From a bacterium (GTDB lineage: Bacteria > Bacillota_I > Bacilli_A > Izemoplasmatales > UBA1188): DNA of 64,000 bases. Shown in pieces: positions 32,606 to 44,610 of this stretch; position 1 is the first letter of the stretch; the number at the start of each line of letters is the position of its first letter. The DNA lies in contig JAFXYB010000005.1 in the NCBI GenBank assembly GCA_017541975.1, positions 534 through 64,533 of the forward strand. The letters are read 5' to 3'. Below the pieces are notes generated by a model, which had not been told where the DNA came from, searched no databases, and saw only the letters and a program-made list of their open reading frames with translations. The position numbers were made by a program, and so were the translations under genes.

Positions 32606-32637
32606 TAAAAAGAAAACCACAGGGGGGGTGTGGTTTT
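32606..32637 (-). terminator. Intrinsic terminator after the 986-aa GH3 gene
   Basis: Minus-strand RNA forms AAAACCACA-CCCCCCC-UGUGGUUUU (9-bp stem) followed by CUUUUUAUUAU. Confidence 0.8.
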
Positions 32638-32659
32638 CTAAAGACAATACATTACAAAA

Positions 32660-35620
32660 TTATATTACCTTTTTTGATTTAATAATTACTATTGTTCCCC
32701 AAGCGGCAAGTCCAACGAATAAGACTGCATCAACAATATACATTGTGATAATCCACTTAGGTGTTGTGTAACCTACGATTTCACCTTTGAATGCATTTGA
32801 ATTTGCGATTGCATAGGCGATATTCTTACCAGCATTTAAGAGAACTGTCATATCGGCAACACTAGTAAGGTCAGCATTAAATGTACCGCCACCAGATGTT
32901 TGGAGGTTTAAATCGCCTCCAGCATAAGCCATCTGTTTACCATTCATATATTTAGGAACAGTGTTGAAGTCACAAATGATGCTTCCTCTAAAGCCCCATT
33001 CTTCTCTTAAGATTTCTGTACAGAGACGATAGTCACCACCAGTCCAAACAGCACCAACTCTGTTGAATGATGTCATAAGACCTCTACATTCGCCTTCTTT
33101 AACAGCGATTTCAAATGGCTTTAGATACAATTCACGAAGAGACTGTTCTGTAAGCCAGCTACAGTCACCAGATACTGATCTATGTGTTTCTTGTTCATTA
33201 GCAACGAAGTGCTTGAGAACTGGAATAACGCCTTTAGATTGTAAACCTCTTACTTCAGCAGCAGCAATCTTACCTGTTAAGAATGGATCTTCGCTCATAT
33301 ATTCAGAACATCTACCACCGAATTGGCTTCTATGGATGTTTACACCAGGAGCATACAGTGATGAATATGGTTGACTTGATAGATCATAACCCCAGAGTCC
33401 TTCTTCACCCATTGCTTCACCGAGTTTTTCGATTAGTTCAATATTCCAAGTTGAAGAGAATACTGGTTCACTTGCGTATTGTGTTGTACCACAAATTCTT
33501 TCTTTATTTAAGAAGCAGGTCCAACCAGAAGGTCCATCTGCTTGAAGAGTTGCAGGAAGTCCTACTTCTTGCATAGCTCTTGTTTGATAAGCTGCTTGGT
33601 TATAAGTTGTTACAAGTTCAGTAGTGATGATTGATTTAACGATATCATCCCATCTTGGATCATCATAATCAACAATTGCCTTATATGTCTTTTCAGGAGT
33701 TGTTTTAGGGAGTAGGTCTTTAACTTGAACAGTTGGGGTTTGGTCGTGGTCAGGCATTTGAACTTTTGACCAATCTGTAGGGTTGTTTGGCTCAATGTTT
33801 GTGAGTTCATCCCATACCATTGGGTCTAAGTTTCTATCATCATCTGTGATAGCTGTTGGCCATGTGCCTTCCCAGTCGCTTCTTCTAAGGATAGTATCTA
33901 ATCCTTGATCTGAGTCATTTAAGAATGATACATCAGTGATAACACCATCAGTTGTGAATCTATTACCAACTGGATTACCTGTTACAGGGTCGTTCTCATA
34001 GAAGATATTATCGTCTAATTCTAATTGGTAATTAGCTTGTTCATGGTGAGCATCTTTACCGATATAGAATGTATATGTACCTTGATCTAACTCATATCCA
34101 TAAAAATCATTTAAGTTTTCATCTTTATAGTCATATGATGCAAAACTATATGGATCTACTTCAATAGTAAGAGTTTCTGATGCACCAGGATTTAAGAGTT
34201 TTGTTTTAGCGAAACCTACAAGAACTTTATGAGCTTTTTCGATTTCATCTTCATAATATGGTGCACTTGCATAGATTTGTACAACATCTTTACCAGCTAC
34301 ACTTCCTGTGTTCTTTACTGTAACTTCAAAGGTAATCTTAGAGTCAATAGCGATTGAACCAGTTGGAGCTTTTGTAGTCCATTCAAATGTTGTATAAGAT
34401 AGACCATATCCGAATGGATAGATAACGTTTTCGTTATACCATGCTTCACCATCGGTATAGCCTCTTGTTTCATAATAACGATATCCTACATAGATACCTT
34501 CTTCGTAGTTTACAAAGTAATACATACCAGAATCAGTACGATATTGATCGAATGTCATACCTTTTTCTGGAGCTTGTTGAGTGATACTTGTACCAAAGTT
34601 TACAGATGATGGAGCAGCAAGTAAATCAGTTGCCCAAGTATCTACAGTCCTTCCTGAAGGGTTAACTTCACCTGTTAGGATAGGACCGAGAGCTTTAATA
34701 CCTTGTTTACCAGTATAACCAATCCATACGCAAGCATCAATCTTATCTGCGAACGGATATCTTTCTGTATCATATGGGAAATTAACTTCCATAGATGATG
34801 CGATATTGAGGATAACAATAACTTTATCGAAGTTAGCAGTAACTTCGTTAAACATATCGATTTCATTCTTATCAAGTTCAAGATAATGGTCATCTGGAGA
34901 ATTGGCACCAGGAGTTGATCCTTGATGTCTTGGAAGGTCAGCACCTTCACCACCAAGTCTTGTGATAACTACGAATGCTGCATCACTATATTCTGAATAT
35001 GATGCCTTAATATCATTTGTATAATTTGCAATTGGTGTTTCGCCAACAGAGAATTGTTTATCGTCACCCGAATCTAAATCTGTATTAGCATTACTTCTTG
35101 CCTCACCAGATTTCTTATCGTCTTTGTAGAAAGCTTCAAGTGTTGGATTTAAAGTGAAATAATCTTTTAATCCACCATAAATATCTATATAATCGAGGTC
35201 AATTCCCATACCAGCCATTCTACGATATAGTGATGAATCTGGGTCAACGACGAATGCACCAGAACCACCACCAGCGAAAGCCATCGCAACACTATTTTTA
35301 CCAAAGATACTTACCTTTTGGTTCTTTTGAATTGGAAGAGTGTTATTATCGTTTTTTAGTAAGACAAAGCCTTCTTCACATACTTCAATATTTGTTGCAT
35401 TTGCATTGTTATATGCATCTGTCTTGCTTGTGGTTTCTGGAACATACATTGGAGGGATTGAATCCTCTCCTTCTGCATATATTGGTTTACCAGAGTCAAG
35501 CACTAAGCTTAAAAATTCTCTTAAATTTGTTGCTTGAGTTACAACATTAATAACAATTCCCAATACAACTATTATTACAGTTGTAATAAACCAAGTTTTA
35601 AATGGTTTATGTTTAAACAT
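32660..35620 (-). CDS. GH3 beta-glucosidase/exo-glycosidase with permuted domain order and TM helices at both termini
   Basis: An N-terminal TM helix (WFITTVIIVVLGIVINVV) is followed by the GH3 C-domain (VLLKNDNNTLPI...GGGSG...GEVNPSGRT). Next come PFGYGLSYTTFEW and the Fn3-like domain (VTVKNTGSVAGKDVVQIY). The GH3 N-domain follows (GGRCSEYMSEDP, KHFVANEQE, GFRGSIICDF), then a C-terminal TM helix. Confidence 0.85.
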   Translation of the reverse strand: MFKHKPFKTWFITTVIIVVLGIVINVVTQATNLREFLSLVLDSGKPIYAEGEDSIPPMYVPETTSKTDAYNNANATNIEVCEEGFVLLKNDNNTLPIQKNQKVSIFGKNSVAMAFAGGGSGAFVVDPDSSLYRRMAGMGIDLDYIDIYGGLKDYFTLNPTLEAFYKDDKKSGEARSNANTDLDSGDDKQFSVGETPIANYTNDIKASYSEYSDAAFVVITRLGGEGADLPRHQGSTPGANSPDDHYLELDKNEIDMFNEVTANFDKVIVILNIASSMEVNFPYDTERYPFADKIDACVWIGYTGKQGIKALGPILTGEVNPSGRTVDTWATDLLAAPSSVNFGTSITQQAPEKGMTFDQYRTDSGMYYFVNYEEGIYVGYRYYETRGYTDGEAWYNENVIYPFGYGLSYTTFEWTTKAPTGSIAIDSKITFEVTVKNTGSVAGKDVVQIYASAPYYEDEIEKAHKVLVGFAKTKLLNPGASETLTIEVDPYSFASYDYKDENLNDFYGYELDQGTYTFYIGKDAHHEQANYQLELDDNIFYENDPVTGNPVGNRFTTDGVITDVSFLNDSDQGLDTILRRSDWEGTWPTAITDDDRNLDPMVWDELTNIEPNNPTDWSKVQMPDHDQTPTVQVKDLLPKTTPEKTYKAIVDYDDPRWDDIVKSIITTELVTTYNQAAYQTRAMQEVGLPATLQADGPSGWTCFLNKERICGTTQYASEPVFSSTWNIELIEKLGEAMGEEGLWGYDLSSQPYSSLYAPGVNIHRSQFGGRCSEYMSEDPFLTGKIAAAEVRGLQSKGVIPVLKHFVANEQETHRSVSGDCSWLTEQSLRELYLKPFEIAVKEGECRGLMTSFNRVGAVWTGGDYRLCTEILREEWGFRGSIICDFNTVPKYMNGKQMAYAGGDLNLQTSGGGTFNADLTSVADMTVLLNAGKNIAYAIANSNAFKGEIVGYTTPKWIITMYIVDAVLFVGLAAWGTIVIIKSKKVI

Positions 35621-35640
35621 ATGTTACCTCAAATTATTTT

Positions 35641-37161
35641 TTAATAATCAGCAGGATTACGTGGAGCATAATTAGTTGTAACAGGAAGTCCCATTACATG
35701 ATCCCATTGGAGAACTGCAGTTGTTTCAACTACGATTGCATCAACGATTGGTGCTGCAGCTTCAAGAGTTGAGCCTTCCATACCAACACTATTCTTTGTG
35801 ATTAATTGAACTAAGTTTTGGCCCTTCTTGAGTGTTAGATTAATTCCAAGGAGATAATTTTGGAATGGTAAGCAGTCGAGTTGAGCTGCTGGGTCGTCTA
35901 AATCATCTGGTGTTGGAACACCTGTGAATGATATTGGATCATAATCTAATGAGACACCATTTAATTCAATTCGATAATTAGATGGATCAAATGTATAGTC
36001 ACGAAGTTCAGCAGATAATCTTGCATAGATTGTTACATCGCTGATATCTTCATCACAAACAATGAAGAACTCTAGTGAATTTTCTTCTCTATATAGATAA
36101 CTTACAAAGTATCCATTTGAACAACCTCTATCTTTTGGAGCTGGAACAATCATACCTTCTTCTGAACATGTACCAGAGAAAGCAGGACCTACCTTCTTAG
36201 CAAGGCTTGTGTCTTCAGCTTCAAATGTATATGTTTGTTTACCAGATAAAGCTTTAATCCAAGTTGCAGTAAGAGATACTGCACCAGTTAGTGGAGCTGT
36301 AAAATCATAAGCAGTTCCATCATCTTTTACCCATTTATCGAAAGTATAGCCAAATCTTTCAGGATCAGTTGGTTTAGTTACAGTTTCACCTGATGCAACT
36401 TCGTAAGAATATGTTGCATAAAGATCACCATAATAACCTTTATTGAATGTTACAGCATAGTGTTCAACACCATCTTTTTTCCAAAGAGCGTATACAGTTG
36501 CATTTTCCTTAACAGGTGCTGTGAAGTCATATAAATACATATAATCTTTATTTGCATACCATTTAACGAATGTATATCCTTCTCTTATTGGAGTTGTTGG
36601 TTTAGCAACGTCACCTTGAACAACCCTTTCAGTTGTTGGAGTAGGAGCTCCATCATAGTTAAGGTTGTATGTTACAGTATACGATTTAGATCTATAATAG
36701 ATAGTTACTTTTGCTGATAATCTTCCATTTTTAACAGTAACAGCTTTTGTGCCTACTGCAAATGCTGGAACAGTGAAAGTAAAATCACTAGATGCCATAT
36801 CAACATAATCTACTGATTTATCTTTGTATGTAACTTTTACAACACCACCTGCAGGGTTAAAAGTATCACCTTCTAGATAATATTGGCATGTTGGGTTAGC
36901 AGCAATCTCAAGTTTTGATGCTTGTTTAGTTGAATCAATATTGGCTTTTACATCACCAATATCTTCACTTCCGCCACCAGTAGTTGTAATATCACCAGAT
37001 TTTGTTGTGGTATTACTTCCACTCTTTGTAGTAGTATCTGAATTAGATTTAGTAGTTGTAGTAATATTACTTGCAGTAGTTGTTGGGTTGTCTTTGTTTC
37101 CACAAGCAGCAAGTGCTACTATGCAAACTAAAGCGATGAATAATGTTAGTATTTTTTTCAT
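35641..37161 (-). CDS. Surface lipoprotein with Thr-rich linker, Ig-like domain, two Listeria-Bacteroides (Flg_new) repeats and a C-terminal CBM-like domain
   Basis: Lipobox LAAC-GN and a TTTKS(N/G)S repeat linker. The repeat motifs are EGYTFVKWY...VYALW and FGYTFDKWV...LTATW. The C-terminus (YTFEAEDT...) is CBM6/35-like. AGGAG is the SD. Confidence 0.7.
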   Translation of the reverse strand: MKKILTLFIALVCIVALAACGNKDNPTTTASNITTTTKSNSDTTTKSGSNTTTKSGDITTTGGGSEDIGDVKANIDSTKQASKLEIAANPTCQYYLEGDTFNPAGGVVKVTYKDKSVDYVDMASSDFTFTVPAFAVGTKAVTVKNGRLSAKVTIYYRSKSYTVTYNLNYDGAPTPTTERVVQGDVAKPTTPIREGYTFVKWYANKDYMYLYDFTAPVKENATVYALWKKDGVEHYAVTFNKGYYGDLYATYSYEVASGETVTKPTDPERFGYTFDKWVKDDGTAYDFTAPLTGAVSLTATWIKALSGKQTYTFEAEDTSLAKKVGPAFSGTCSEEGMIVPAPKDRGCSNGYFVSYLYREENSLEFFIVCDEDISDVTIYARLSAELRDYTFDPSNYRIELNGVSLDYDPISFTGVPTPDDLDDPAAQLDCLPFQNYLLGINLTLKKGQNLVQLITKNSVGMEGSTLEAAAPIVDAIVVETTAVLQWDHVMGLPVTTNYAPRNPADY

Positions 37162-37259
37162 TGTCAGTCTCCTTTTATATATTTTTTTATTAAAAACCCA
37201 TCTTAAAATACATTTTCATATATCGAAAAATCGATTTTTAATATCATTTTTTAGTTATT

Positions 37260-37285
37260 ATGGGACCCCAAAAAAGGGGCCCCAT
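37260..37285 (-). terminator. GC-rich hairpin after the 1391-aa GH3 gene (possible terminator, no clear U-tract)
   Basis: Minus-strand RNA forms AUGGGGCCCC-UUUUUU-GGGGUCCCAU (10 bp including one G-U). Confidence 0.45.
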
Positions 37286-37323
37286 AAAACATATAGTTTT
37301 AAAGTAAACTATCTATTAAGTTA

Positions 37324-40300
37324 TTAAGCAATAACTAAATTGATATTTAATGTTACTCTTACAGATGTGCCTTGACCAGCTCTAATCCAGTTACCACCAC
37401 TACCAGGGTTACCTAATGTGTAAGTTTGGAGAGTGATAGTGATTGGATATGTACCAGCAGCAGCTGTACCTGTGAGTTTGATACCATCAACGATTTGTGA
37501 TACATAAGTTAATCCGCAAAGTCCAACTGGAGTAATCATTACATTAGTAGCTGTGATTCCTTCAGGGAGTCCAGTGATAGTGTAAGATGGTTCATGAATT
37601 TGAACTTTAGATGGATCATATAAATCATTACCTTGAGTTAAGTATGGTGCGATTTCTTTAGCATAATCGTAAGTTACGATATCAGCTGCAGTTTCATCTT
37701 CTTTACGTTGCATCCAACCAGAGTTATTTACATTATAAGCAGCAGCTACAATAAATGATTTAGTCTTATTTTGATATGCATAGTAATTAGATGAGAATGT
37801 TAATCCGTCAGTATAGTTAACTGAATCGCTAGATACTTCTACGCCATCAGCAGTGATTGGGCTTACAGCTTTGATCTTGATAGTTGTTGGGAGGTTCTTA
37901 ATCCAGTGATCAGCAGTTGCAGTAGCAGTGATTTCAACTTCTTGACCTACTGTCATACTTGGAACTGATACAGCACCAGTAGAACCGTTTACAGATACAC
38001 CATTAGCAAATCTATAAGTTCTATCGCCTGTAGAAGCGTTAACTGTTAATGTTAGGTTAGGATTTGCATGAGTAGACTTAGTAACATATTGAGTTTGAGT
38101 TAATGCATCATTAGAATATGTTTCAGTGATTGTATAAGTTAGATAATTCCAAACAATTTTTGTAATAGAAGTCTTAGCTTGGTTCTTTGTTACAACTACT
38201 GTTTCAGCTGCAACAGCTTCATTAACATCTTCAGTTAGAGGATCGTCTTCAACAGCAGGAGTGATGATATAAGTGTAAGTGTAAGTAATAGTAGGTCTTC
38301 TACCACCTATACTATGTTCTTCTTCTACTGGATTTGGATCGAGTGTTTCATAGTTGTTAGCCTTTGGAAGTCTAGTCATATCAACTGGGAATGATACACC
38401 AGTGATTTGATAGTTAGCAGTTTCTGCACATGTTAATTCGACAGCTCCAGAAATACCAGCATAAGCTGTACCAGTGAGTGTTAACTCAGTCATACCATTG
38501 TTAATACACATAGAGTTAACTTCGTTGAAGATATCTCTAATAGCTGCAAGTCTCATTGCATAGTAATGAGATGGAGCAGCAACAGTACCATCTTTAACGT
38601 TTTGGTTTTGTGCATCTTCAGCTGGAACTAAACAGATACCTTTGCCATTACGAGCAGTGTTATCCCATTTACCCCAAGTGAATCCTGTAGGACCATATCC
38701 ATTCCAAGAACCCATGAGATATGTATCACCAGCACGTACTGATAAGTCTTGAGATACATATGATTTAGCCCATTGGTCGTTAACTGTACCACCTCTATAG
38801 CCCCATTGGTCATGCATTAACCATTGGTGAGATGCATAGTTATTAGTATTAACGATGAAACCAAGTCTGTTGAATGATGTCATAACGCCAGCCGTACCAT
38901 TCTTAACTACAGCTTCGAATGGTCTCATATAGATTTCACGGAAAGTTTGTTCTGTAGCGAATACAGATACACCACCTACGTTAGCACGACGATATTCTTG
39001 GTCATTACAGAAATAGTGTTTCCAGTAGCACATGATACCTTTAGAAGTAACACCTTTATCTACTGCAGTAGCAATCTTAGCAGCGAGTACGCCATCTTCT
39101 GAATAATATTCGAAGCAACGTCCATTGAAGCCAGTTCTATGAGTATCGATACCTCCACCTCTCCAACCAGTTGTTCCGTTGAGCATAGCTTGAGTACCGA
39201 GCATTTCGCCTTGTTGTTCAACGAGTTCAATGTTGAATGTAGAAGCTGTGATTGGGCAAGTTGACCAGTCAGCACCTTTACCAAATGTTACAGGGCCATC
39301 GTTACCAGTTAAACCTTTGTTGATAACTGGACCCTTAGCACTTGTATAGTAGCTTACTAATTGATCCCATGTTAAGCAGTTCATATAAGCATCCCACTTA
39401 TCATTTACAGCTTTTTCTTCAGCTGTCATAGTAGGATATTTAACTACGCCATTTTCAGTGTATGGTTCAACATAGTATGTACCAACGAGTTCATAGAATA
39501 AATCTTTTAGAGTCTTTCCTTCAGGAAGAGCTGCACCTTGAGTCCAAGTGTCTGGAATACCAGCTTCAGTTGCATACCAAGGTTGATCAGCATTATCCAT
39601 ATAAGGATAATAAGACCATTCAGCATCTAACATTTCTTTTTCATAGTCATTTAAAGTTCTATCTGCTAAATTAGTGTAAGCTGGTTGTTTAACACCACCT
39701 TCAACAGCACGACTTGACATATTTTTAAGTAAGTCAGCTCTTACTGTTCTGAAATCCATGAAGTCATCAATGAATACGTTCTTGATTTCTTGTCCACTTA
39801 CAGGGTCAATTGGGCATTTAATGTCAGCCTTAACGTTATAAGTAACAGAAAGTCTAGCATCATGAGAAGAATTTCTTAATGAGAGAACATAGTCACCAGC
39901 TTCAAGTTCCCAACCTTCGAAATTGTTTTTGTTAGCATCATTCCAGTCATAAGATGCTAGATCATGAGCGAGGATTTGAATTTCAACGATTTGAGATTCG
40001 CCTGGAGCTAAGAGTTTTGTCTTAGTGAAGCCAACTAATGCTGCAGAAGCTTTTTCAATTCCACCTTTAGTGTAAGGAGGGCAGTTGTAGAGTTGTACTA
40101 CATCTTTACCAGCTACGCTACCAGTATTAGTTACTTGAACTTTGATTGTGATATATTGTTGATCAGATTTGATTTCTAAATCTTTTGAACGACCAGCTAG
40201 TTGCCATTCAAATGTAGTGTAAGATAAACCACCACCAAATGGCATAGCTACAGTTTCAGCATAGAATTCTTCAGCTTCATCTTCTTTACCAGCTGCAACT

Positions 40301-41499
40301 AAATCATCGTATACAGTTTCATAATATCTATGACCCATGTAGATGCCTTCTCTATATTCAACGAGAGCGAACATAGATTGAGTTCCATCAGGATTACGGA
40401 AGAATGCATCAGCTCTGCCTTCGCCTTCAGCGTTTTGAGATTGTCTTGAAACGTTTGTGAAAGCTGGATCTTTGTTAACGTTTACCCACCAAGTGTCAGT
40501 AGATTTACCAGATGGATTTACTTTACCATCGATAATCTTAACAGCTGATAAGCAACCAACTTGTCCTACACCACCTACCCAGAGGATAGCGTCAGCGCCG
40601 AGTTCTTTCATTTCGCCTAAACTCATTGCATTTGAACTGTTTAAAACAACGATAACCTTATCAAAATATTGTTTAGCATGAGCGATTAAAGCTTTTTCAT
40701 TGTCTTGAAGATCGAGTTCAGTTTCGTCTTCGTCACTATGGCCAGGAGCAGCATGAGTTAATAAGTCATCGTTTTCAGTTCCAAATCTATGGAGAATAAC
40801 GATAGCTGCATCACTATAAGCACTATAAGTTGATACTACAGATGTTGAGAATGGTGCTAAATCTCCTTCTAAATATCTTTGAGAGACTTGTCCGCCAGCT
40901 GAAATAATTCTTTCATAAATGCTATGAACAGTAGGGTTCATAATAAATCCTTCTTCAGCGAAAGCGTTATCCCAATTGTATTGAGTGCCTTGATCATTTT
41001 GCTTAGCATTACCAGATCCACCACCAGAAACAACTATATCTTGAGATGCAATACCAAATACAGTGATCTTTCTATCAGCAGTGTCTAATGGAAGTACACC
41101 ATCATTGTATAGAAGTACTTGGCCTTCATCTGCAATTTGTCTGTTGATTAAATCTGCGATTGTGTCTGCTTCAGTCTTTGTTGCAGTTGCAGGATAGAAC
41201 TTACCAGCATTAGTCTTATAAAGACTAGTTTGAACACCAGGAACTGTGTAAGTAGGTTCATCAATAAGTTCTAATTCTGGAGTAGGGATTACGAATGCAT
41301 CCTTACCAGGGTCACCTTTGTCACCCTTTTCGCCTTTTTCACCTTGAGGACCTTGAGCGCCTGTTGCGCCTGGATCGCCTTTTTCACCTTTTTCACCAGC
41401 TGTGCCGCCACCGCAGCCTACTAATGTAGCGATTCCTAATACAAGAGCAAGAGTAAATAAAAGGCTAAGAAAAACTTTTAATGTGTTTCTTTTTTTCAT
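37324..41499 (-). CDS. Giant GH3 lipoprotein with N-terminal collagen-like stalk, permuted GH3 domains and a roughly 400-aa C-terminal extension
   Basis: I prefer ATG 41499 (MKKRNTLKVF..., AAGGAG 7 nt upstream) over the track start at 41541. Lipobox LVGC-GGG is followed by 11 G-X-Y triplets. GH3 C-domain motifs (QVLLYNDGVLPL, GGGSG, GKVNPSGKS) come next. These are followed by PFGGGLSYTTFEW, the Fn3-like domain (VQVTNTGSVAGKDVVQLY) and the GH3 N-domain (GFNGRCFEYYSEDG, KHYFCNDQE, MTSFNR). Confidence 0.85.
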   Translation of the reverse strand: MKKRNTLKVFLSLLFTLALVLGIATLVGCGGGTAGEKGEKGDPGATGAQGPQGEKGEKGDKGDPGKDAFVIPTPELELIDEPTYTVPGVQTSLYKTNAGKFYPATATKTEADTIADLINRQIADEGQVLLYNDGVLPLDTADRKITVFGIASQDIVVSGGGSGNAKQNDQGTQYNWDNAFAEEGFIMNPTVHSIYERIISAGGQVSQRYLEGDLAPFSTSVVSTYSAYSDAAIVILHRFGTENDDLLTHAAPGHSDEDETELDLQDNEKALIAHAKQYFDKVIVVLNSSNAMSLGEMKELGADAILWVGGVGQVGCLSAVKIIDGKVNPSGKSTDTWWVNVNKDPAFTNVSRQSQNAEGEGRADAFFRNPDGTQSMFALVEYREGIYMGHRYYETVYDDLVAAGKEDEAEEFYAETVAMPFGGGLSYTTFEWQLAGRSKDLEIKSDQQYITIKVQVTNTGSVAGKDVVQLYNCPPYTKGGIEKASAALVGFTKTKLLAPGESQIVEIQILAHDLASYDWNDANKNNFEGWELEAGDYVLSLRNSSHDARLSVTYNVKADIKCPIDPVSGQEIKNVFIDDFMDFRTVRADLLKNMSSRAVEGGVKQPAYTNLADRTLNDYEKEMLDAEWSYYPYMDNADQPWYATEAGIPDTWTQGAALPEGKTLKDLFYELVGTYYVEPYTENGVVKYPTMTAEEKAVNDKWDAYMNCLTWDQLVSYYTSAKGPVINKGLTGNDGPVTFGKGADWSTCPITASTFNIELVEQQGEMLGTQAMLNGTTGWRGGGIDTHRTGFNGRCFEYYSEDGVLAAKIATAVDKGVTSKGIMCYWKHYFCNDQEYRRANVGGVSVFATEQTFREIYMRPFEAVVKNGTAGVMTSFNRLGFIVNTNNYASHQWLMHDQWGYRGGTVNDQWAKSYVSQDLSVRAGDTYLMGSWNGYGPTGFTWGKWDNTARNGKGICLVPAEDAQNQNVKDGTVAAPSHYYAMRLAAIRDIFNEVNSMCINNGMTELTLTGTAYAGISGAVELTCAETANYQITGVSFPVDMTRLPKANNYETLDPNPVEEEHSIGGRRPTITYTYTYIITPAVEDDPLTEDVNEAVAAETVVVTKNQAKTSITKIVWNYLTYTITETYSNDALTQTQYVTKSTHANPNLTLTVNASTGDRTYRFANGVSVNGSTGAVSVPSMTVGQEVEITATATADHWIKNLPTTIKIKAVSPITADGVEVSSDSVNYTDGLTFSSNYYAYQNKTKSFIVAAAYNVNNSGWMQRKEDETAADIVTYDYAKEIAPYLTQGNDLYDPSKVQIHEPSYTITGLPEGITATNVMITPVGLCGLTYVSQIVDGIKLTGTAAAGTYPITITLQTYTLGNPGSGGNWIRAGQGTSVRVTLNINLVIA
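41299..41397 (-). repeat. Collagen-like G-X-Y x11 coding repeat
   Basis: Encodes GEKGEKGDPGATGAQGPQGEKGEKGDKGDPGKD immediately after the lipobox. Confidence 0.9.
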
Positions 41500-41544
41500 T
41501 TTTTTCTCCTTTTTGTATTTGTAGAATGTTTCTACCTTCAAGAT

Positions 41545-41553
41545 ATTCTATCA
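41545..41553 (-). promoter_or_regulatory. Candidate extended -10 (TGATAGAAT) for the collagen-GH3 gene
   Basis: It lies 30 nt downstream of the sense-oriented box CAGTTCGTGATG. This geometry matches box-29 nt-TAAAAT (within TGATAAAAT) at the LytTR operon. The palindrome GTAGAA-TGT-TTCTAC (41521..41535) follows in the 5' UTR. Confidence 0.4.
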
Positions 41554-41580: not shown

Positions 41581-41656
41581 CATCACGAACTGCATTTATA
41601 CAGCATAAAAAGAGTATCATCTTCAATTCGTGTTGTGAAATTAACATTTCATGATA
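41581..41656. promoter_or_regulatory. Three copies of a 12-bp box (CAnTTCGTGATG), a candidate LytTR regulator binding site, upstream of the collagen-GH3 gene
   Basis: Plus strand: CAATTCGTGTTG (41624..41635) and CATTTCATGATA (41645..41656), exactly 21 bp apart. Minus strand: CAGTTCGTGATG (41592..41581). Confidence 0.6.
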
Positions 41657-41680
41657 TTTAATTTTTGAATAATTTATGGA

Positions 41681-41722
41681 GAAAAATAAAAAAGAGAGCA
41701 TTCAAATGTGAATGCATCTCTT
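41681..41722 (-). terminator. Intrinsic terminator after the histidine kinase gene
   Basis: Minus-strand RNA forms AAGAGAUGCAUUCA-CAUU-UGAAUGCUCUCUU (one bulge) followed by UUUUAUUUUUC. Confidence 0.75.
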
Positions 41723-41739
41723 ATCTTTTTAGAAACGTT

Positions 41740-43024
41740 TTATTCGTTTAAAGGGAAGATTATATCGAGAATAAATCTATCATCTAAAGTCTTGAAACTA
41801 ACACTGCCTTTATATTTATTTACAATAGACTGAATACTCTTAACACCATATCCGTGAATGTTTTTATCCTTCTTGATTGTTTGTGGAACACCATCAAACA
41901 TTTTTATTACACCAGAAAAATAATTCTCTTCGTGAATATTTATAAAATAGTTCTTCTTTGTGATTCTGATATCTATTACTCTTTTCTCCGCATTGTCCAC
42001 TTTATCTACAGCTTCAATTGCATTATCAAGAATGTTCCCAAATAGAGAATATATATCAGTTTCTTTAAATGGAGATAAGCAATCATTATCTGCCATACAT
42101 GTATAATATATGTTTTTCTTTTTACAAATAAAGCTTGTCCTTGTGAGAACAACATCAAGAGCTGGATTATTGGTTCTTACTATCGCATCATAAGTCTCTA
42201 CAGCTTCACTTATTTCTTGCGATAAAAGTTCTTTTTGATCTGCCTCAAAGTTTTCAATTTGATGTTTCAAATCGTGGAATTTAATGTTCATTAAATCGAT
42301 AACCGATTTTTCATATGAATATTGTTCTTTGGATTTCTTAAGAATTTCTTTAATATTGTCTCTTTCTATCTCATTGTTTTTGGCTTTTAAAGTCGCCATT
42401 TCATAAAGAATAATAACTAATACAAGCAAGATTACAAAGATATTATAACAAACCCGAAGCATTTCACTGCCTTCTCTTAAGAACCTTGAGAAAACAAGAT
42501 TCAATATAATAGTGGCGATTATTGCAAAAATAGAAATTACAATCGTTGACCTTCTATTAACTAATTAAATAGCACAAATCAAACTTCTTGAGAGAAAAAT
42601 AAACAATGATGAATGCCAAAACTATTATTCCGAAATAAAGAAGATAATAAAAGACTGGCGATGTTCCTTCAGGAAATTTGCCAGATGAATATGAATAAAT
42701 CTTTTGGCAAATGAATTGTATACAGTAACCAAATGTTCCTGCAAATAAAGAGCTAAAGAAATCGCATTTATAGCATATTGGTATGGTCCCAACTACGAAG
42801 AATATTAGCAGTGTAAAACCTAACATTGCAAAATACAATCTAATATCTCTATCAAAGATAGTCAATAACTGATTGAAATATAAATATCTAAAAACGCATA
42901 CAAGGCCATAACAAGCAATGCATCTCAATAAAAAATATGATCTTTTTTCTTGTTCCTTGCAAATAAAATATGCAAAGAAAACTATTAGAAAGTTGTTTAT
43001 AAAATCTTGAGCTAAACTATTCAT
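41740..43024 (-). pseudogene. AgrC/HPK10-type sensor histidine kinase (polytopic membrane domain plus GHKL ATPase) split by a frameshift
   Basis: ORF 42557..43024 encodes only the TM helices. ORF 41740..42504 (TTG start inside a TM helix) carries the H-box FHDLKHQIENF, the N-box LFGNILDNAIEAV and the G-box GYGVKSIQSIV. The downstream frame stays open upstream to LVNRRSTIVISIFAIIATIILNLVF, right up to the stop of the first ORF. The frames differ by 1 nt. Confidence 0.65.
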
Positions 43025-43026
43025 AA

Positions 43027-43734
43027 TCAGTTACCACTTAATTCATAATTTTGGAGAGCATCTAAGAATTCTTTCTTTCTTGTTCTTCCAACCCATAATT
43101 TGTCTTTACCGACAACTATGTAATCATTTTCAATTTTAGAAACACTTCTCAAATTGACTAGATAACTTCTACTACATTTACAGAAAAGATCACTTGGAAG
43201 AATCTTTTCAACTGATTTCATTGTTCCGTATGCTTCATAGTTTCCTTCAGATGTATGATAAATGATTTTGTGTACATCAATTTCAACATAATTGAGTGAA
43301 TGAACATCAATTCTTAATAAACCAGTATTTACTGGAATTGTAATGTGTTTTTTTGAACTTTTTTCTCTTTCGGCAATAATCTTATCAAGCTTTATTTTTA
43401 AAGAACCATAAACAATTGGTTTTAGAATATAATCAAAAGCATTAAATTCATATCCTCTTATTGCATATTTTGCAAGCAAGGTAATGAAAATGAGGGTTAC
43501 ATCCTTATCTATCTCTCTCAACTTTTTAGATGCCTCGAATCCATTCATCTTAGGCATATCAACATCCATAAACACAATGTCAAAAATAGGTTTATATTCT
43601 AGCACAAATTCTGCACCATTTTTAAACCTCGTGGTATGATATTCAAACTTTTTTTCTTTTGAATATTTTTCTAAGTACTCTTCAAGTTGCTCAACAAAAG
43701 TATCTTCATCTTCAACTATAGCAATATTATACAT
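43027..43734 (-). CDS. LytTR/AlgR-family response regulator (REC plus LytTR DNA-binding domain)
   Basis: The REC domain has DIVFMDVDMPKMNG. The C-terminal LytTR domain has YVEIDVHKIIYHT...CSRSYLVNL. Confidence 0.9.
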   Translation of the reverse strand: MYNIAIVEDEDTFVEQLEEYLEKYSKEKKFEYHTTRFKNGAEFVLEYKPIFDIVFMDVDMPKMNGFEASKKLREIDKDVTLIFITLLAKYAIRGYEFNAFDYILKPIVYGSLKIKLDKIIAEREKSSKKHITIPVNTGLLRIDVHSLNYVEIDVHKIIYHTSEGNYEAYGTMKSVEKILPSDLFCKCSRSYLVNLRSVSKIENDYIVVGKDKLWVGRTRKKEFLDALQNYELSGN

Positions 43735-43760
43735 AAGAACCCCTTATAACATTTATTTAG

Positions 43761-43799
43761 GTTTTAAGTAAAAGTTTTAAGCAAAAGTTTTAAGTAAAA
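43761..43799. repeat. 13-bp tandem repeat x3 (GTTTTAAG[T/C]AAAA) in the leader of the LytTR operon
   Basis: GTTTTAAGTAAAA (43761..43773), GTTTTAAGCAAAA (43774..43786) and GTTTTAAGTAAAA (43787..43799). Confidence 0.9.
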
Positions 43800-43818
43800 A
43801 TATTACCATCTATAAATT

Positions 43819-43827
43819 ATTTTATCA
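43819..43827 (-). promoter_or_regulatory. Candidate extended -10 (TGATAAAAT) of the LytTR operon
   Basis: On the minus strand, TGATAAAAT spans 43827..43819. Its TAAAAT hexamer begins 29 nt downstream of the promoter-proximal box, which ends at 43854. Confidence 0.4.
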
Positions 43828-43853
43828 TTTTAAATAATTTAAAACACAATATG

Positions 43854-43929
43854 TATCATGAAACGAGTGTTTTACAACACGAATGAATAATTTACGCATT
43901 TCGTGATGCAAAAATGACATTTCGTGATG
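43854..43929. promoter_or_regulatory. Four copies of the same 12-bp box arranged as two divergent 21-bp-phased pairs upstream of the LytTR operon
   Basis: Plus strand: CATTTCGTGATG at 43897..43908 and again at 43918..43929. Minus strand: TCATTCGTGTTG (43886..43875) and CGTTTCATGATA (43865..43854). The minus-strand pair TTCGTGTTGT-N10-TTTCATGATA is identical in both half-sites and spacing to 41627..41656. Confidence 0.65.
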
Positions 43930-43995: not shown

Positions 43996-44610
43996 TTAGA
44001 AAGGAAAGGTATAAAGTATTCTTCCAAGTCTTATGAAAGTTGTACCACATTTAAGAGCAATTTTATAGTCATCACTCATACCCATAGAAAGTTCAGAAAG
44101 ATGATATTTTTCTTTCAAATAATTAGCTCTCTCAAAAACGGTTGTTGTCTCTTCTACTGTGTATGTGGCATCACTCATTGCCATAAAACCTATGACGTTT
44201 ATATTTTTGAACTCTTTTATTTTTTCCATAAAAGAATCTAATTCTTCTTCTCTAACACCGTTCTTTGTGGTGGAAGTTGTTAAGTGAAGTTCTACAAAAC
44301 ACTTAAGTGGAGCTTTTCTTTTTTCATTGATGATTTTTGCAAGCTCTATTGAATCAAGAGAATGCAGATAATCGATTTCATTAATTACTTTTGATGCTTT
44401 ATTCTTTTGTAGGTGCCCAATAAAATGCCAAGTTATATTTAAATCCTTTAATTCATTTTTCTTTTTTAAGAATGAATCTACTCTATTTTCACCAAAGTTG
44501 TTTATTCCATAGTTAAAAAGAGAACGCATCTTCTCACAATCAATATATTTGGTTGCAGCAACAAGCACCACACCCTTTGTTTCTTCTCTAATTTTTTCAA
44601 TATTATTCAT
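43996..44610 (-). CDS. yggS: YggS-family PLP-binding homeostasis protein
   Basis: VAATKY (PLP lysine), FGENRV, WHFIGHLQKNK and SMGMSDDYKIA..GTTFIRLG. Confidence 0.85.
   Translation of the reverse strand: MNNIEKIREETKGVVLVAATKYIDCEKMRSLFNYGINNFGENRVDSFLKKKNELKDLNITWHFIGHLQKNKASKVINEIDYLHSLDSIELAKIINEKRKAPLKCFVELHLTTSTTKNGVREEELDSFMEKIKEFKNINVIGFMAMSDATYTVEETTTVFERANYLKEKYHLSELSMGMSDDYKIALKCGTTFIRLGRILYTFPF

What the first reader, a model, noticed from the sequence alone, without database searches (positions are those of the whole stretch)
41581..43929. Shared 21-bp-phased box motif (CAnTTCGTGATG) in front of both the LytTR operon and the collagen-GH3 gene: a candidate LytTR regulon
There are seven copies of a 12-bp box, all located in the two intergenic regions that flank the two-component operon.

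**Upstream of the regulator gene:**
- CATTTCGTGATG occurs twice on the plus strand (43897 and 43918, exactly 21 bp apart).
- A divergent pair lies on the minus strand: TCATTCGTGTTG (43886) and CGTTTCATGATA (43865), also 21 bp apart.

**Upstream of the GH3 gene:**
- CAATTCGTGTTG (41624) and CATTTCATGATA (41645) lie on the plus strand, 21 bp apart.
- CAGTTCGTGATG lies on the minus strand (41592..41581).

**Composite element and geometry.** TTCGTGTTGT-N10-TTTCATGATA is identical in both half-sites and spacing at 41627..41656 (plus strand) and 43883..43854 (minus strand). Both promoter-proximal sense boxes sit 29-30 nt upstream of the -10 hexamer of an extended -10 element (TGATAAAAT and TGATAGAAT).

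**Interpretation.** Direct repeats with 21-bp periodicity are the known binding architecture of LytTR regulators such as AgrA, ComE and PlnC. The box resembles the ComE-type CAnTTCAG and AlgR-type TTCGT cores, as far as I recall them. This links a LytTR system, which normally controls quorum sensing, bacteriocins or virulence, to surface glycosidase expression. I found no AgrB/AgrD-like or ComC-like peptide gene.
Basis: partly seen in the sequence, partly recalled or inferred. Interest (0 to 1): 0.7.

Follow-up and report, generated by a model that had tools for sequence, protein, structure and literature searches.

The report
LytTR operator boxes controlling GH3 glycosidase
The repeated 12-bp boxes are real and are most likely the binding sites through which a two-component regulator switches on its own operon and a neighbouring surface sugar-cleaving enzyme, a gene pairing conserved in many rumen and gut bacteria but never characterised.

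Summary
CANTTCRTGWTR occurs 5 times in 64 kb against 0.53 expected. With the two weaker copies, all seven boxes lie in the two intergenic regions flanking the LytTR response regulator / histidine kinase operon, 21 bp apart.

Comparison with a sister species shows an eighth, degenerate box. Each promoter therefore has four boxes: two antisense, then two sense, then 29-30 nt to an extended -10.

Comparative evidence supports the regulon:
- In close strains the boxes are kept while the spacers change.
- A sister species (regulator 69% identical) lacks boxes at the regulator gene but has all four before the collagen-GH3 gene.
- Eight distinct loci from Lachnospiraceae-type bacteria (regulator about 50% identical) carry a regulator-kinase-large glycosidase module, six with an identified GH3.
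- In those distant modules, related boxes sit at the same distances from the -10, and the box variant matches between the two promoters of a locus.

The geometry matches ComE and PlnC sites. No peptide-signal gene is present.

The LytTR-GH3 neighbourhood was noted in Butyrivibrio in 2010, so the link is not new. The operator sequence and its four-box head-to-head layout appear undescribed.

In this window the kinase gene carries a one-base frameshift absent from eight related contigs. Binding itself is untested.

The parts
43918..43929 (+). Regulator promoter, distal box 1 (CATTTCGTGATG). It is antisense to the regulator gene and starts at -102 from the TG of the extended -10.
   Evidence: identical in the related strains L020 and L070
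43897..43908 (+). Regulator promoter, distal box 2 (CATTTCGTGATG). It is antisense and starts at -81, 21 bp from box 1.
   Evidence: (D11)
43875..43886 (-). Regulator promoter, proximal sense box 3 (TCATTCGTGTTG), starting at -59.
   Evidence: the core is conserved in related strains while the flanking spacers differ
43854..43865 (-). Regulator promoter, proximal sense box 4 (CGTTTCATGATA), starting at -38. It ends 29 nt before the -10 hexamer.
43819..43827 (-). Extended -10 (TGATAAAAT) of the regulator-kinase operon. No good -35 hexamer is present.
   Evidence: read from sequence; conserved as TGCTAAAAT / TGTTAAAAT in related strains
43027..43734 (-). Response regulator gene (235 aa), with a receiver domain and a LytTR DNA-binding domain.
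   Evidence: PF00072 1.3e-17, PF04397 1.2e-17; below every NCBIfam equivalog cut-off
41740..43024 (-). Histidine kinase gene. It encodes a polytopic membrane sensor (about 7 hydrophobic segments by eye, not computed) plus a HATPase_c_5 domain. It is broken by one extra T at about 42563/42564. Removing that base gives a 427-aa protein 93% identical to intact relatives.
41686..41722 (-). Intrinsic terminator of the regulator-kinase operon (hairpin plus U run). It separates that operon from the GH3 promoter.
   Evidence: (-15.7 kcal/mol, z -4.3)
41645..41656 (+). GH3 promoter, distal box 1 (CATTTCATGATA). It is antisense to the GH3 gene and starts at -103.
41624..41635 (+). GH3 promoter, distal box 2 (CAATTCGTGTTG). 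It is antisense and starts at -82.
41601..41612 (-). GH3 promoter, degenerate sense box 3 (CTTTTTATGCTG), starting at -59.
   Evidence: (9.9 bits); it aligns with CATTTTATGTTG in the sister species L027/L158
41581..41592 (-). GH3 promoter, proximal sense box 4 (CAGTTCGTGATG), starting at -39. It ends 30 nt before the -10 hexamer.
41545..41553 (-). Extended -10 (TGATAGAAT) of the GH3 gene.
   Evidence: TGATAGAAT or TGATAAAAT in relatives
37324..41499 (-). Predicted target gene. It encodes a lipoprotein (lipobox LVGC) with collagen-like Gly-X-Y repeats and a domain-permuted GH3 glycosidase.
32660..37161 (-). Probable co-transcribed genes: a Big_3/Flg_new surface lipoprotein (35641..37161) and a second permuted GH3 (32660..35620). 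Membership in the regulon is inferred only.
   Evidence: The same gene order occurs in L031 and L034. No box and no U-tailed terminator lies between them. A strong terminator lies at 32639..32611.

Best explanation
The boxes are operator half-sites for the LytTR response regulator encoded at 43027..43734.

**Layout (shown).** Each of the two promoters carries four 12-bp boxes at fixed positions. Measured from the TG of an extended -10, they start at about -102, -81, -59 and -38. The two upstream boxes are inverted relative to the two downstream boxes.

**Mechanism (inferred).**
- The phosphorylated regulator binds each 21-bp-phased pair as a head-to-tail dimer.
- The proximal sense pair is oriented and spaced like a ComE box. 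It abuts the missing -35 and recruits RNA polymerase to the extended -10.
- The distal inverted pair is a higher-affinity upstream site that helps load the proximal pair.

**Outcome (inferred).** Positive autoregulation of the regulator-kinase operon. Induction of the collagen-GH3 lipoprotein gene, and probably of the Big_3/Flg_new gene and second GH3 behind it.

**Signal (open).** The kinase is of the AgrC/ComD type but has no peptide partner. Its signal is unknown. The strict pairing with glycosidase genes suggests a carbohydrate-related cue. In this particular sequence the kinase is frameshifted, so the circuit may be signal-blind here, unless the extra base is an assembly error.
For: 1. 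**Enrichment and location.** There are 5 exact matches against 0.53 expected. Seven core matches lie in these two intergenic regions and none in the rest of the intergenic DNA of the window.
2. **Phasing.** Spacing is 21/22/21 bp, and the layout is the same at both promoters.
3. **Proteins.** A REC+LytTR regulator and a HATPase_c_5 kinase are encoded between the two box sets.
4. **Fit to known LytTR sites.** The rule is repeats of 9-11 nt with 11-13 nt spacers directly upstream of -35/-10. The ComE box lies 31-32 nt from the -10. Here the equivalent 9-mer ends 33-34 nt from the -10.
5. **Footprint in close strains.** In strains whose regulator is 96-98% identical, the four regulator-promoter boxes are kept while the spacers and leader diverge.
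6. **Sister species L027/L158.** Its ThrRS is 88% identical, its regulator 69% identical, and gene order is the same. It has no boxes before the regulator gene. It has the full four-box set before the collagen-GH3 gene, with 30 nt to TGATAGAAT.
7. **Module conservation.** Eight distinct loci with a regulator about 50% identical (L001, L029/L030, L031/L032, L033-L037) each carry a regulator-kinase-large glycosidase module. The downstream gene is an identified GH3 in six (L001, L029, L031/L032, L035-L037). In L034 the first gene has no Pfam hit and a GH3 follows two genes later. L033 pairs a GH2 with one module and a cut, unassigned gene with the other. A Big_3/Flg_new gene follows in L001, L029/L030, L031/L032 and L034; L037 has a Flg_new gene cut by the contig end.
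8. **Transfer of the motif.** A PWM built only from the seven window boxes is enriched in the module intergenic regions of those distant loci. It gives 9 hits against 0.74 expected at 10 bits, P about 1e-7.
9. **Positional conservation.** In seven distant glycosidase promoters the best antisense positions in the whole -125..-12 region are -102 and -81 (0 of 2000 shuffles). The sense position near -38 is weaker (21 of 2000).
10. **Head-to-head symmetry.** The inner pair of boxes forms an inverted repeat in distant loci (0 of 1000 shuffles). The outer pair does so more weakly (15 of 1000).
11. **Co-variation.** The box variant matches between the two promoters of one locus. It is TTCGTGATG here, TTCGCGTTG in L001 and L033, and TTCACGTTG in L029 and L036.
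12. **Independent promoter.** A terminator separates the kinase gene from the GH3 promoter.
Against: - No binding or expression data exist. Everything is sequence inference.
- The kinase is frameshifted in this window.
- In distant lineages the proximal sense boxes are weak. The -59 position is not significant with the window-derived matrix.
- Some paralogous modules show no recognisable boxes: L029 module 1, L033 module 1 and L034 module 1. L031 is only marginal.
- Autoregulatory boxes are absent in L027/L158 and L028.
- Two distant promoters (L033, L034) have a consensus -35, which would reduce the need for an activator.
- A four-box head-to-head arrangement was not found described for a LytTR regulator in the papers searched. 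The role given to the distal pair is therefore conjecture.
- Only 64 kb of this genome could be scanned, so the size of the regulon is unknown.
Confidence: 0.75

Rival explanations
1. The regulator binds the boxes, but the distal inverted pairs are separate divergent promoters. As with agr P2/P3, they would drive short or antisense transcripts on the + strand. These would be antisense to the kinase 3' end and to the yggS-like gene.
For: The distal pairs are the best matches to the consensus and point away from the genes. A weak -10-like TGAATAAT follows the 41645 box (I2).
Against: No -10 lies at a conserved distance on the opposite strand in 11 promoters. In several loci the kinase terminator or coding sequence follows immediately. 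There is no conserved small ORF or Pfam or Rfam hit. The distal pair keeps a fixed distance (-102/-81) from the sense -10 across lineages, which ties it to the sense promoter.
Confidence: 0.06
2. The regulator binds the boxes but represses rather than activates. Alternatively, the two pairs act in opposition, with the distal pair sequestering or looping DNA to shut the promoter off.
For: L029 and L035 regulator promoters have a third box lying over the -10 (CAATTCGTGTTATAAT). L033 and L034 glycosidase promoters have consensus TTGACA -35 elements. PlnD and AlgR show that LytTR proteins can repress.
Against: In the window both promoters lack a -35. All boxes lie upstream of position -27 from the TG, which is the position of activator sites (ComE, PlnC) and not of operators that block polymerase.
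Confidence: 0.1
3. The boxes are recognised by a different transcription factor encoded elsewhere in the genome, and the neighbouring LytTR system is coincidental.
For: Binding has not been tested. Several module paralogues lack recognisable boxes.
Against: The boxes travel with the regulator-kinase module across lineages that differ in G+C and flanking gene context. The box variant changes with the regulator lineage and matches between the two promoters of each locus. The 21-bp direct-repeat layout and the CAnTTC core are typical of LytTR proteins.
Confidence: 0.05
4. The similarity between the two intergenic regions is a relic of a duplicated or inverted promoter segment and has no present regulatory role. 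The 31-nt inverted repeat flanking the operon could be, for example, the ends of an invertible or mobile segment.
For: The composites at 41626-41656 and 43854-43884 form an inverted repeat (81%) that brackets the 2.2-kb operon (I1).
Against: No recombinase is nearby. Similarity is confined to the boxes, while the spacers differ. The sister species has the boxes on one side only. Distant lineages keep box positions but not the surrounding sequence.
Confidence: 0.03

Closest known systems
ComE boxes of Streptococcus pneumoniae/mitis (ComD-ComE competence regulon)
   Same: The regulator is REC+LytTR and the kinase is of the HATPase_c_5 type. The sites are imperfect direct repeats with a 21-bp period and a CAnTTC core reading toward the promoter. 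The right repeat lies about 31-34 nt from an extended -10-type promoter. The regulator operon is autoregulated.
   Different: There is no peptide pheromone gene or exporter. The target is a surface glycosidase, not competence or bacteriocin genes. There are four boxes, with an additional inverted upstream pair. The box is longer (12 nt, ...GTGATG tail).
LytTR regulators next to secreted GH3 enzymes in Butyrivibrio proteoclasticus B316 (PUL7, 21, 33; Kelly et al. 2010, PMC2914790) and the RR[LytTR]+HK of Roseburia gpPUL Ros-7 (PMC5320581)
   Same: It has the same gene neighbourhood of LytTR regulator, kinase and large secreted GH3. The homologues found here are mostly from rumen and gut Lachnospiraceae-type contigs.
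   Different: Those papers report only the neighbourhood. They describe no binding motif, promoter architecture or regulon. The B316 enzymes have a C-terminal transmembrane helix. Here the enzyme has an N-terminal lipobox and a collagen-like repeat, and the host is an Acholeplasmatales-like member of the Bacilli. I could not examine the B316 sequences themselves.
YpdA/YpdB (and BtsS/BtsR) of Escherichia coli
   Same: It is a LytTR regulator that binds a direct repeat of GGCATTTCAT, separated by the 11-13 nt spacers typical of LytTR sites. The core is nearly the same as CATTTCAT/CATTTCGT here. It senses a nutrient, not a peptide, and binding of the two sites is sequential and cooperative. BtsR is the best NCBIfam hit, at 74.7 bits against a cut-off of 246.
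   Different: Its kinase is of the LytS type, with a different sensor and a different kinase domain family. It has only two sites. Its target is a transporter gene. The regulator here is far below the BtsR cut-off.
AlgR sites at algD/algC of Pseudomonas aeruginosa
   Same: The core CCGTTCGTC shares TTCGT. Multiple sites are used, one in inverted orientation, and all are needed for full activity. High-affinity distal sites and a weaker proximal site are combined.
   Different: AlgR sites are hundreds of bp apart and not 21-bp phased. The kinase type, the organism and the targets all differ.
AgrC-AgrA with the divergent P2/P3 promoters of Staphylococcus aureus
   Same: The kinase and regulator domain types are the same. 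Two oppositely oriented pairs of direct repeats lie in one intergenic region, and the operon is autoregulated (abstract; the remainder is from general knowledge).
   Different: In agr each pair serves its own divergent promoter. Here no divergent promoter or gene is detectable. There is no AgrB or AgrD.

Membership tests
LytTR-type response-regulator operator (ComE/PlnC/AgrA/YpdB style) | A REC+LytTR regulator is encoded at the locus. | tested here: met
   Pfam PF00072 and PF04397, both about 1e-17.
LytTR-type response-regulator operator (ComE/PlnC/AgrA/YpdB style) | Two imperfect repeats of 9-11 nt are separated by 11-13 nt, giving a period of about 21 bp. | tested here: met
   Start-to-start spacing is 21 bp in three of the four pairs and 20 bp in the degenerate pair. 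The 9-nt core with a 12-nt spacer is equivalent to the 12-nt box with a 9-nt spacer. The rule is taken from PMC4847170, PMC2714321 and PMC4005675.
LytTR-type response-regulator operator (ComE/PlnC/AgrA/YpdB style) | The repeats lie directly upstream of the -35/-10 of the regulated promoter. In ComE the right repeat is 31-32 nt from the -10. | tested here: met
   The sense pair ends 29-30 nt (12-mer) or 33-34 nt (9-mer equivalent) before TAAAAT and TAGAAT. Transcription starts are predicted, not mapped.
LytTR-type response-regulator operator (ComE/PlnC/AgrA/YpdB style) | A single pair of repeats is present per promoter. | tested here: not met
   Each promoter has four boxes: two antisense followed by two sense. 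This is a variant layout and does not contradict LytTR binding.
LytTR-type response-regulator operator (ComE/PlnC/AgrA/YpdB style) | The regulator physically binds the repeats, and binding is enhanced by phosphorylation. | not testable with these tools
   This needs EMSA, footprinting or DAP-seq.
Peptide quorum-sensing cassette (agrBDCA, comCDE, plnABCD) | The kinase has a polytopic sensor and a HATPase_c_5 (HPK10-type) catalytic domain. | tested here: met
   PF14501, 1.6e-24. The gene is frameshifted in the window.
Peptide quorum-sensing cassette (agrBDCA, comCDE, plnABCD) | The locus encodes a peptide precursor gene (AgrD/ComC/PlnA) and a processing or export gene (AgrB, ComAB). | tested here: not met
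   Neighbouring genes are yggS-like, Nuc_deoxyrib_tr, a pseudouridine synthase and GH3. Seven small ORFs in and around the two intergenic regions have no Pfam hit at E<=1. No small gene is conserved across the related loci.
GH3-associated LytTR systems of Lachnospiraceae (Kelly et al. 2010) | A LytTR regulator is encoded close to a secreted GH3 enzyme. | tested here: met
   The window, the 98% strains and the sister species L027/L158 meet it. So do seven of eight distinct distant loci (L001, L029/L030, L031/L032, L034-L037). L033 has a GH2 and an unassigned gene instead.
GH3-associated LytTR systems of Lachnospiraceae (Kelly et al. 2010) | The GH3 enzyme carries a C-terminal transmembrane helix. 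| tested here: not met
   The window GH3 ends ...VRVTLNINLVIA with no hydrophobic helix. It has an N-terminal lipoprotein signal (LVGC) instead.
LytS/LytT-BtsS/BtsR-YpdA/YpdB nutrient-sensing systems | The kinase is of the LytS type, and the regulator passes the BtsR/LytR equivalog score. | tested here: not met
   The only Pfam domain hit above threshold in the kinase is HATPase_c_5. The regulator scores 74.7 bits against 246 for BtsR, and 61.5 against 375 for LytR.

The most novel reading that the evidence does not exclude
A widespread, uncharacterised family of peptide-less AgrC/AgrA-type two-component systems acts as a dedicated glycan or glycoside sensor in Gram-positive and wall-less rumen and gut bacteria. 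This would be a Firmicute counterpart to the hybrid two-component regulators of Bacteroides PULs. Each system switches on an adjacent surface GH3 (or GH2) enzyme cluster through a conserved four-box head-to-head operator. That operator loads two regulator dimers, a LytTR binding mode not described so far in the papers I searched.
Probability: 0.35. Interest if true: 0.65.

Novelty: new variant of a known kind. Interest (0 to 1): 0.5.

Why it matters
How Gram-positive and wall-less rumen and gut bacteria decide when to make their large surface glycosidases is poorly understood. Only LacI- and AraC-type regulators and AraC-type two-component systems have been studied in any depth (my recollection, not checked here).

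This locus gives a concrete, testable cis-element for a LytTR system whose association with GH3 enzymes was noticed in 2010 but never followed up:
- a consensus box, CA(A/T)TTC(G/A)(T/C)G(T/A)T(G/A)
- fixed box positions relative to the extended -10
- two target promoters.

It also shows an AgrC/ComD-type kinase family operating without any peptide gene. That widens what this kinase class may sense.

The four-box head-to-head operator would be a new arrangement for LytTR regulators if two dimers really bind it.

The motif can be used at once to predict regulons in Lachnospiraceae and Acholeplasmatales-like genomes, and to design EMSA or reporter experiments.

Tried and rejected
- **Genome collection.** The scan with the regulator did not recover the source genome. 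The best hit was 52% identical, in a Lachnospiraceae MAG. A whole-genome regulon scan was therefore impossible.
- **Metagenome scan.** It returned mostly unrelated 21/42-bp satellite-like repeats and palindromes. Only L070 is the same species, and no extra regulon member was found.
- **Plasmid collection.** It holds no close homologue of the regulator, so no cultured, annotated example could be read.
- **Rfam.** There is no RNA family in either intergenic region, so a riboswitch or sRNA explanation was dropped.
- **Divergent promoter.** A search on the opposite strand found no conserved -10.
- **Small ORFs.** Candidate signal peptides, for example MEKNKKESIQM at 41677 (+), have no family hit, no ribosome-binding site and no conservation.
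- **Invertible segment.** The 31-nt inverted repeat bracketing the operon was considered as the ends of an invertible segment. This was rejected because there is no recombinase and the sister species has the boxes on one side only.
- **Simple sigma-70 scan.** It did not exceed shuffles and did not call the extended -10 promoters. These were read directly and supported by conservation.
- **PDB sequence search with the regulator.** It matched receiver domains only and gave nothing useful for the LytTR domain.

Full report
**Layout of the region**

All genes between 32.6 and 50 kb are on the minus strand. Read in the sense direction, the order is:
- a yggS-like gene (43996..44610)
- a 261-nt intergenic region
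- a 235-aa REC+LytTR response regulator (43027..43734)
- a histidine kinase (41740..43024), with a polytopic N-terminus and a HATPase_c_5 domain
- a hairpin-plus-U terminator (41686-41722)
- a promoter region
- a 1391-aa lipoprotein with Gly-X-Y collagen-like repeats and a domain-permuted GH3 (37324..41499)
- a Big_3/Flg_new lipoprotein
- a second permuted GH3.

The kinase reading frame is broken by one extra T at about 42563/42564. Removing it restores a 427-aa protein 93% identical to intact relatives. The extra base is absent from eight related contigs.

**Checking the observation**

- CANTTCRTGWTR has 5 matches in 64 kb against 0.53 expected. None of 100 shuffles reached 5.
- The core TTCRTGWTR has 7 matches in the 501 nt of the two intergenic regions. 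It has none in the other ~2.5 kb of intergenic DNA and 7 in ~61 kb of coding DNA.
That test fails within this window.
- The two extended -10 elements and the 29- and 30-nt distances are as stated.

Alignment with a sister species revealed an eighth, degenerate box, CTTTTTATGCTG, at 41612..41601. Both promoters therefore share one layout on the sense strand:

[inverted box]-9-[inverted box]-about 10-[box]-8/9-[box]-29/30 nt-TGnTAnAAT

The box starts are at about -102, -81, -59 and -38 from the TG.

**Close relatives**

- **Strains with a 96-98% identical regulator (L020-L026, L070).** In those whose contig covers the upstream region, they keep all four regulator-promoter boxes at the same spacing, while the spacers and the leader differ. 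This is a classic footprint.
- **Sister species L027/L158.** It has the same gene order, ThrRS 88% identical and the regulator 69% identical. It has a plain promoter and no boxes before the regulator gene. It has the complete four-box set, with 30 nt to TGATAGAAT, before its collagen-GH3 lipoprotein gene.

The glycosidase promoter is therefore the conserved target. Autoregulation is specific to the window's lineage.

**Distant relatives**

Regulators about 50% identical come from rumen and gut contigs of Lachnospiraceae type. I examined eight distinct loci: L001, L029/L030, L031/L032 and L033-L037.
- Each carries a regulator-kinase-large glycosidase module. An identified GH3 is the next gene in six. 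In L034 a GH3 lies two genes downstream. L033 has a GH2 and a cut, unassigned gene.
- A Big_3/Flg_new gene follows in four loci. A second GH3 follows, as in the window, in L031 and L034. L037 has a Flg_new gene cut by the contig end.
- Modules are sometimes tandemly duplicated.

A weight matrix built only from the seven window boxes is enriched in the module intergenic regions of these loci. At 10 bits it gives 9 hits against 0.74 expected from the rest of the same loci, P about 1e-7.

Seven of their glycosidase promoters were anchored on the extended -10.
- The best antisense positions in the whole upstream region are again -102 and -81 (0 of 2000 shuffles).
- The sense position near -38 is weaker (21 of 2000).
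- The -59 position is not detected by the window-derived matrix.
- A locus-specific symmetry test shows that the inner boxes form an inverted repeat (0 of 1000 shuffles). Matches reach 11 of 12 positions in L033 and L034.

The box variant differs between lineages but matches between the regulator promoter and the glycosidase promoter of the same locus. This is what a locally encoded regulator predicts.

Regulator promoters of the distant lineages carry only sense pairs, at -69/-48 or -58/-38. L029 and L035 have an extra box over the -10.

**Comparison with known systems**

The literature held here states the following.
- LytTR sites are two direct or inverse repeats of 9-11 nt with 11-13 nt spacers (PMC4847170).
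- PlnC and PlnD repeats lie directly upstream of the -35/-10 (PMC2714321).
- The ComE box is aCAnTTcaG-12-aCAgTTgaG, 31-32 nt from the -10 (PMC6001120).
- The YpdB motif is GGCATTTCAT.
- The AlgR core is CCGTTCGTC, and one of its sites is inverted (PMC4064291).

The sense pair here has the same orientation as ComE boxes, a CAnTTC core and nearly the same distance from the -10.

The system is not a peptide quorum-sensing cassette. It has no AgrB/AgrD, ComC or ComAB genes, no conserved small gene, and no family hit for small ORFs.

It is also not a LytS/BtsS-type system.

The kinase family, sensor domain included, is conserved at 33-41% identity over its full length. Named members come from Roseburia and Oscillospiraceae and carry only generic names.

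**Prior knowledge of the glycosidase link**

- Kelly et al. 2010 reported three LytTR regulators in Butyrivibrio proteoclasticus B316. [quoted passage not shown]
- Sheridan et al. 2016 list RR[LytTR]+HK in Roseburia gpPUL Ros-7 (PMC5320581).
- Seven full-text searches (one further search call was rejected for an invalid term) found no description of a binding motif, promoter layout or regulon for these systems.

**Host organism**

ThrRS is 100% identical only to unnamed metagenome proteins. The nearest named relatives, at about 69%, are Acholeplasmatales, 'Firmicutes CAG:313' and Bacilli MAGs. Related contigs come from metagenome assemblies, and the nearest genome hit is a roe-deer rumen MAG.

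The lipobox anchoring of the GH3 would suit a wall-less host, which is my inference. The Butyrivibrio enzymes use a C-terminal helix instead.

The closest solved enzymes are domain-permuted beta-glucosidases, 5wug and 5k6l. NCBIfam scores fall well below all equivalog cut-offs, so substrate specificity is open.

**Mechanism**

Shown:
- the boxes, their phasing and their positions
- their conservation and their co-variation with the regulator lineage
- the domain make-up of the proteins
- the terminator that makes the GH3 promoter independent of the operon.

Inferred:
- The phosphorylated regulator binds each phased pair as a dimer.
- The proximal sense pair activates an extended -10 promoter that lacks a -35.
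- The distal inverted pair nucleates or stabilises binding.
- The second and third genes of the cluster are co-transcribed. Only a -24 kcal/mol hairpin without a U tail lies after the first GH3. A strong terminator follows the second GH3.

Unknown:
- the signal
- whether the kinase is functional in this strain.

**Rival explanations**

The rivals, each rated low, are:
- divergent promoters driven by the distal pairs
- repression rather than activation
- recognition by another factor
- a relic of duplication or inversion.

The evidence for and against each is given in the rival explanations section.

**Verdict**

It is a new variant of a known kind.
- It is a LytTR operator with the classical 21-bp phasing.
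- Unlike known examples, it is arranged as four head-to-head boxes.
- It serves a peptide-less AgrC/AgrA-type system that is dedicated to surface glycosidase genes.
- It occurs here in an Acholeplasmatales-like rumen or gut bacterium.

Interest is moderate. The gene association was already noted, but the cis-element makes an uncharacterised, widespread regulatory family directly testable.

Noticed in passing
window 42563-42564 (within 41740..43024, minus strand): A single extra T (TTTAATTAG against TTTAATAG) splits the histidine kinase into 155-aa and 254-aa ORFs. Eight related contigs (L020-L025, L070, and L027/L158 at the protein level) have an intact 427-aa gene. It is either a strain-specific pseudogene or an assembly error.
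   Followed up: yes
window 43761-43805: A 13-bp tandem repeat in three copies (GTTTTAAGTAAAA) lies in the 5' leader of the regulator gene. It is absent from related strains, whose leader is 26 nt shorter (19 nt shorter in L070).
   Followed up: partly
window 41521-41535 (minus strand): A small leader hairpin, GUAGAA-aca-UUCUAC, lies just after the predicted GH3 transcription start. It is conserved in the sister species L027/L158. Distant glycosidase promoters (L033, L034, L036) also have a leader hairpin, with a different sequence.
   Followed up: partly
window 37259-37286 (minus strand): A G+C-rich hairpin (-24 kcal/mol, z -4.3) without a U tail follows the first GH3 gene. A similar hairpin sits between GH3 and the Flg_new gene in L031. 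It may be an attenuator or an mRNA-stability element inside the cluster.
   Followed up: partly
window 32660..41499 (minus strand): Both GH3 proteins have the permuted domain order: C-terminal domain, Fn3-like domain, then N-terminal catalytic domain. The first adds a lipobox and collagen-like Gly-X-Y repeats, whose length varies between strains (stronger Collagen match in L020). A GH2 gene (29618..31561) lies further downstream, beyond a radical SAM gene.
   Followed up: partly
L029 6950-7000 and L035 3110-3130 (regulator promoters): A third consensus box overlaps the -10 (CAATTCGTGTTATAAT) in these distant regulator promoters. This suggests autorepression at high regulator levels in those lineages.
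   Followed up: no
L029, L033, L034: Two regulator-kinase modules sit within about 6 kb of each other. L029 pairs one with a GH3 and one with a 1394-aa protein without Pfam hits. L033 pairs one with a GH2. L034's first module is followed by toxin-antitoxin-like genes instead. The first module of each locus shows no recognisable boxes of this type.
   Followed up: partly
L066, L084, L087, L103, L108 and others (metagenome contigs): The box-pair pattern also matches unrelated tandem arrays with 42-bp spacing between matches, for example CAGTTCATGATGGCTATCTTTCAGTTCATGATG. These come from contigs of about 50% G+C. No homologue of the window's regulator, kinase or GH3 is encoded on them.
   Followed up: partly
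window 41626-41680 and 43809-43884: Beyond the boxes, a second inverted-repeat segment (I2, 30 nt, 70%) aligns in a register shifted by exactly 21 nt from the box repeat (I1). An 11-nt exact direct repeat, TGAATAATTTA, occurs at 41666 and 43884. The significance is unknown and it may be chance in A+T-rich DNA.
   Followed up: no
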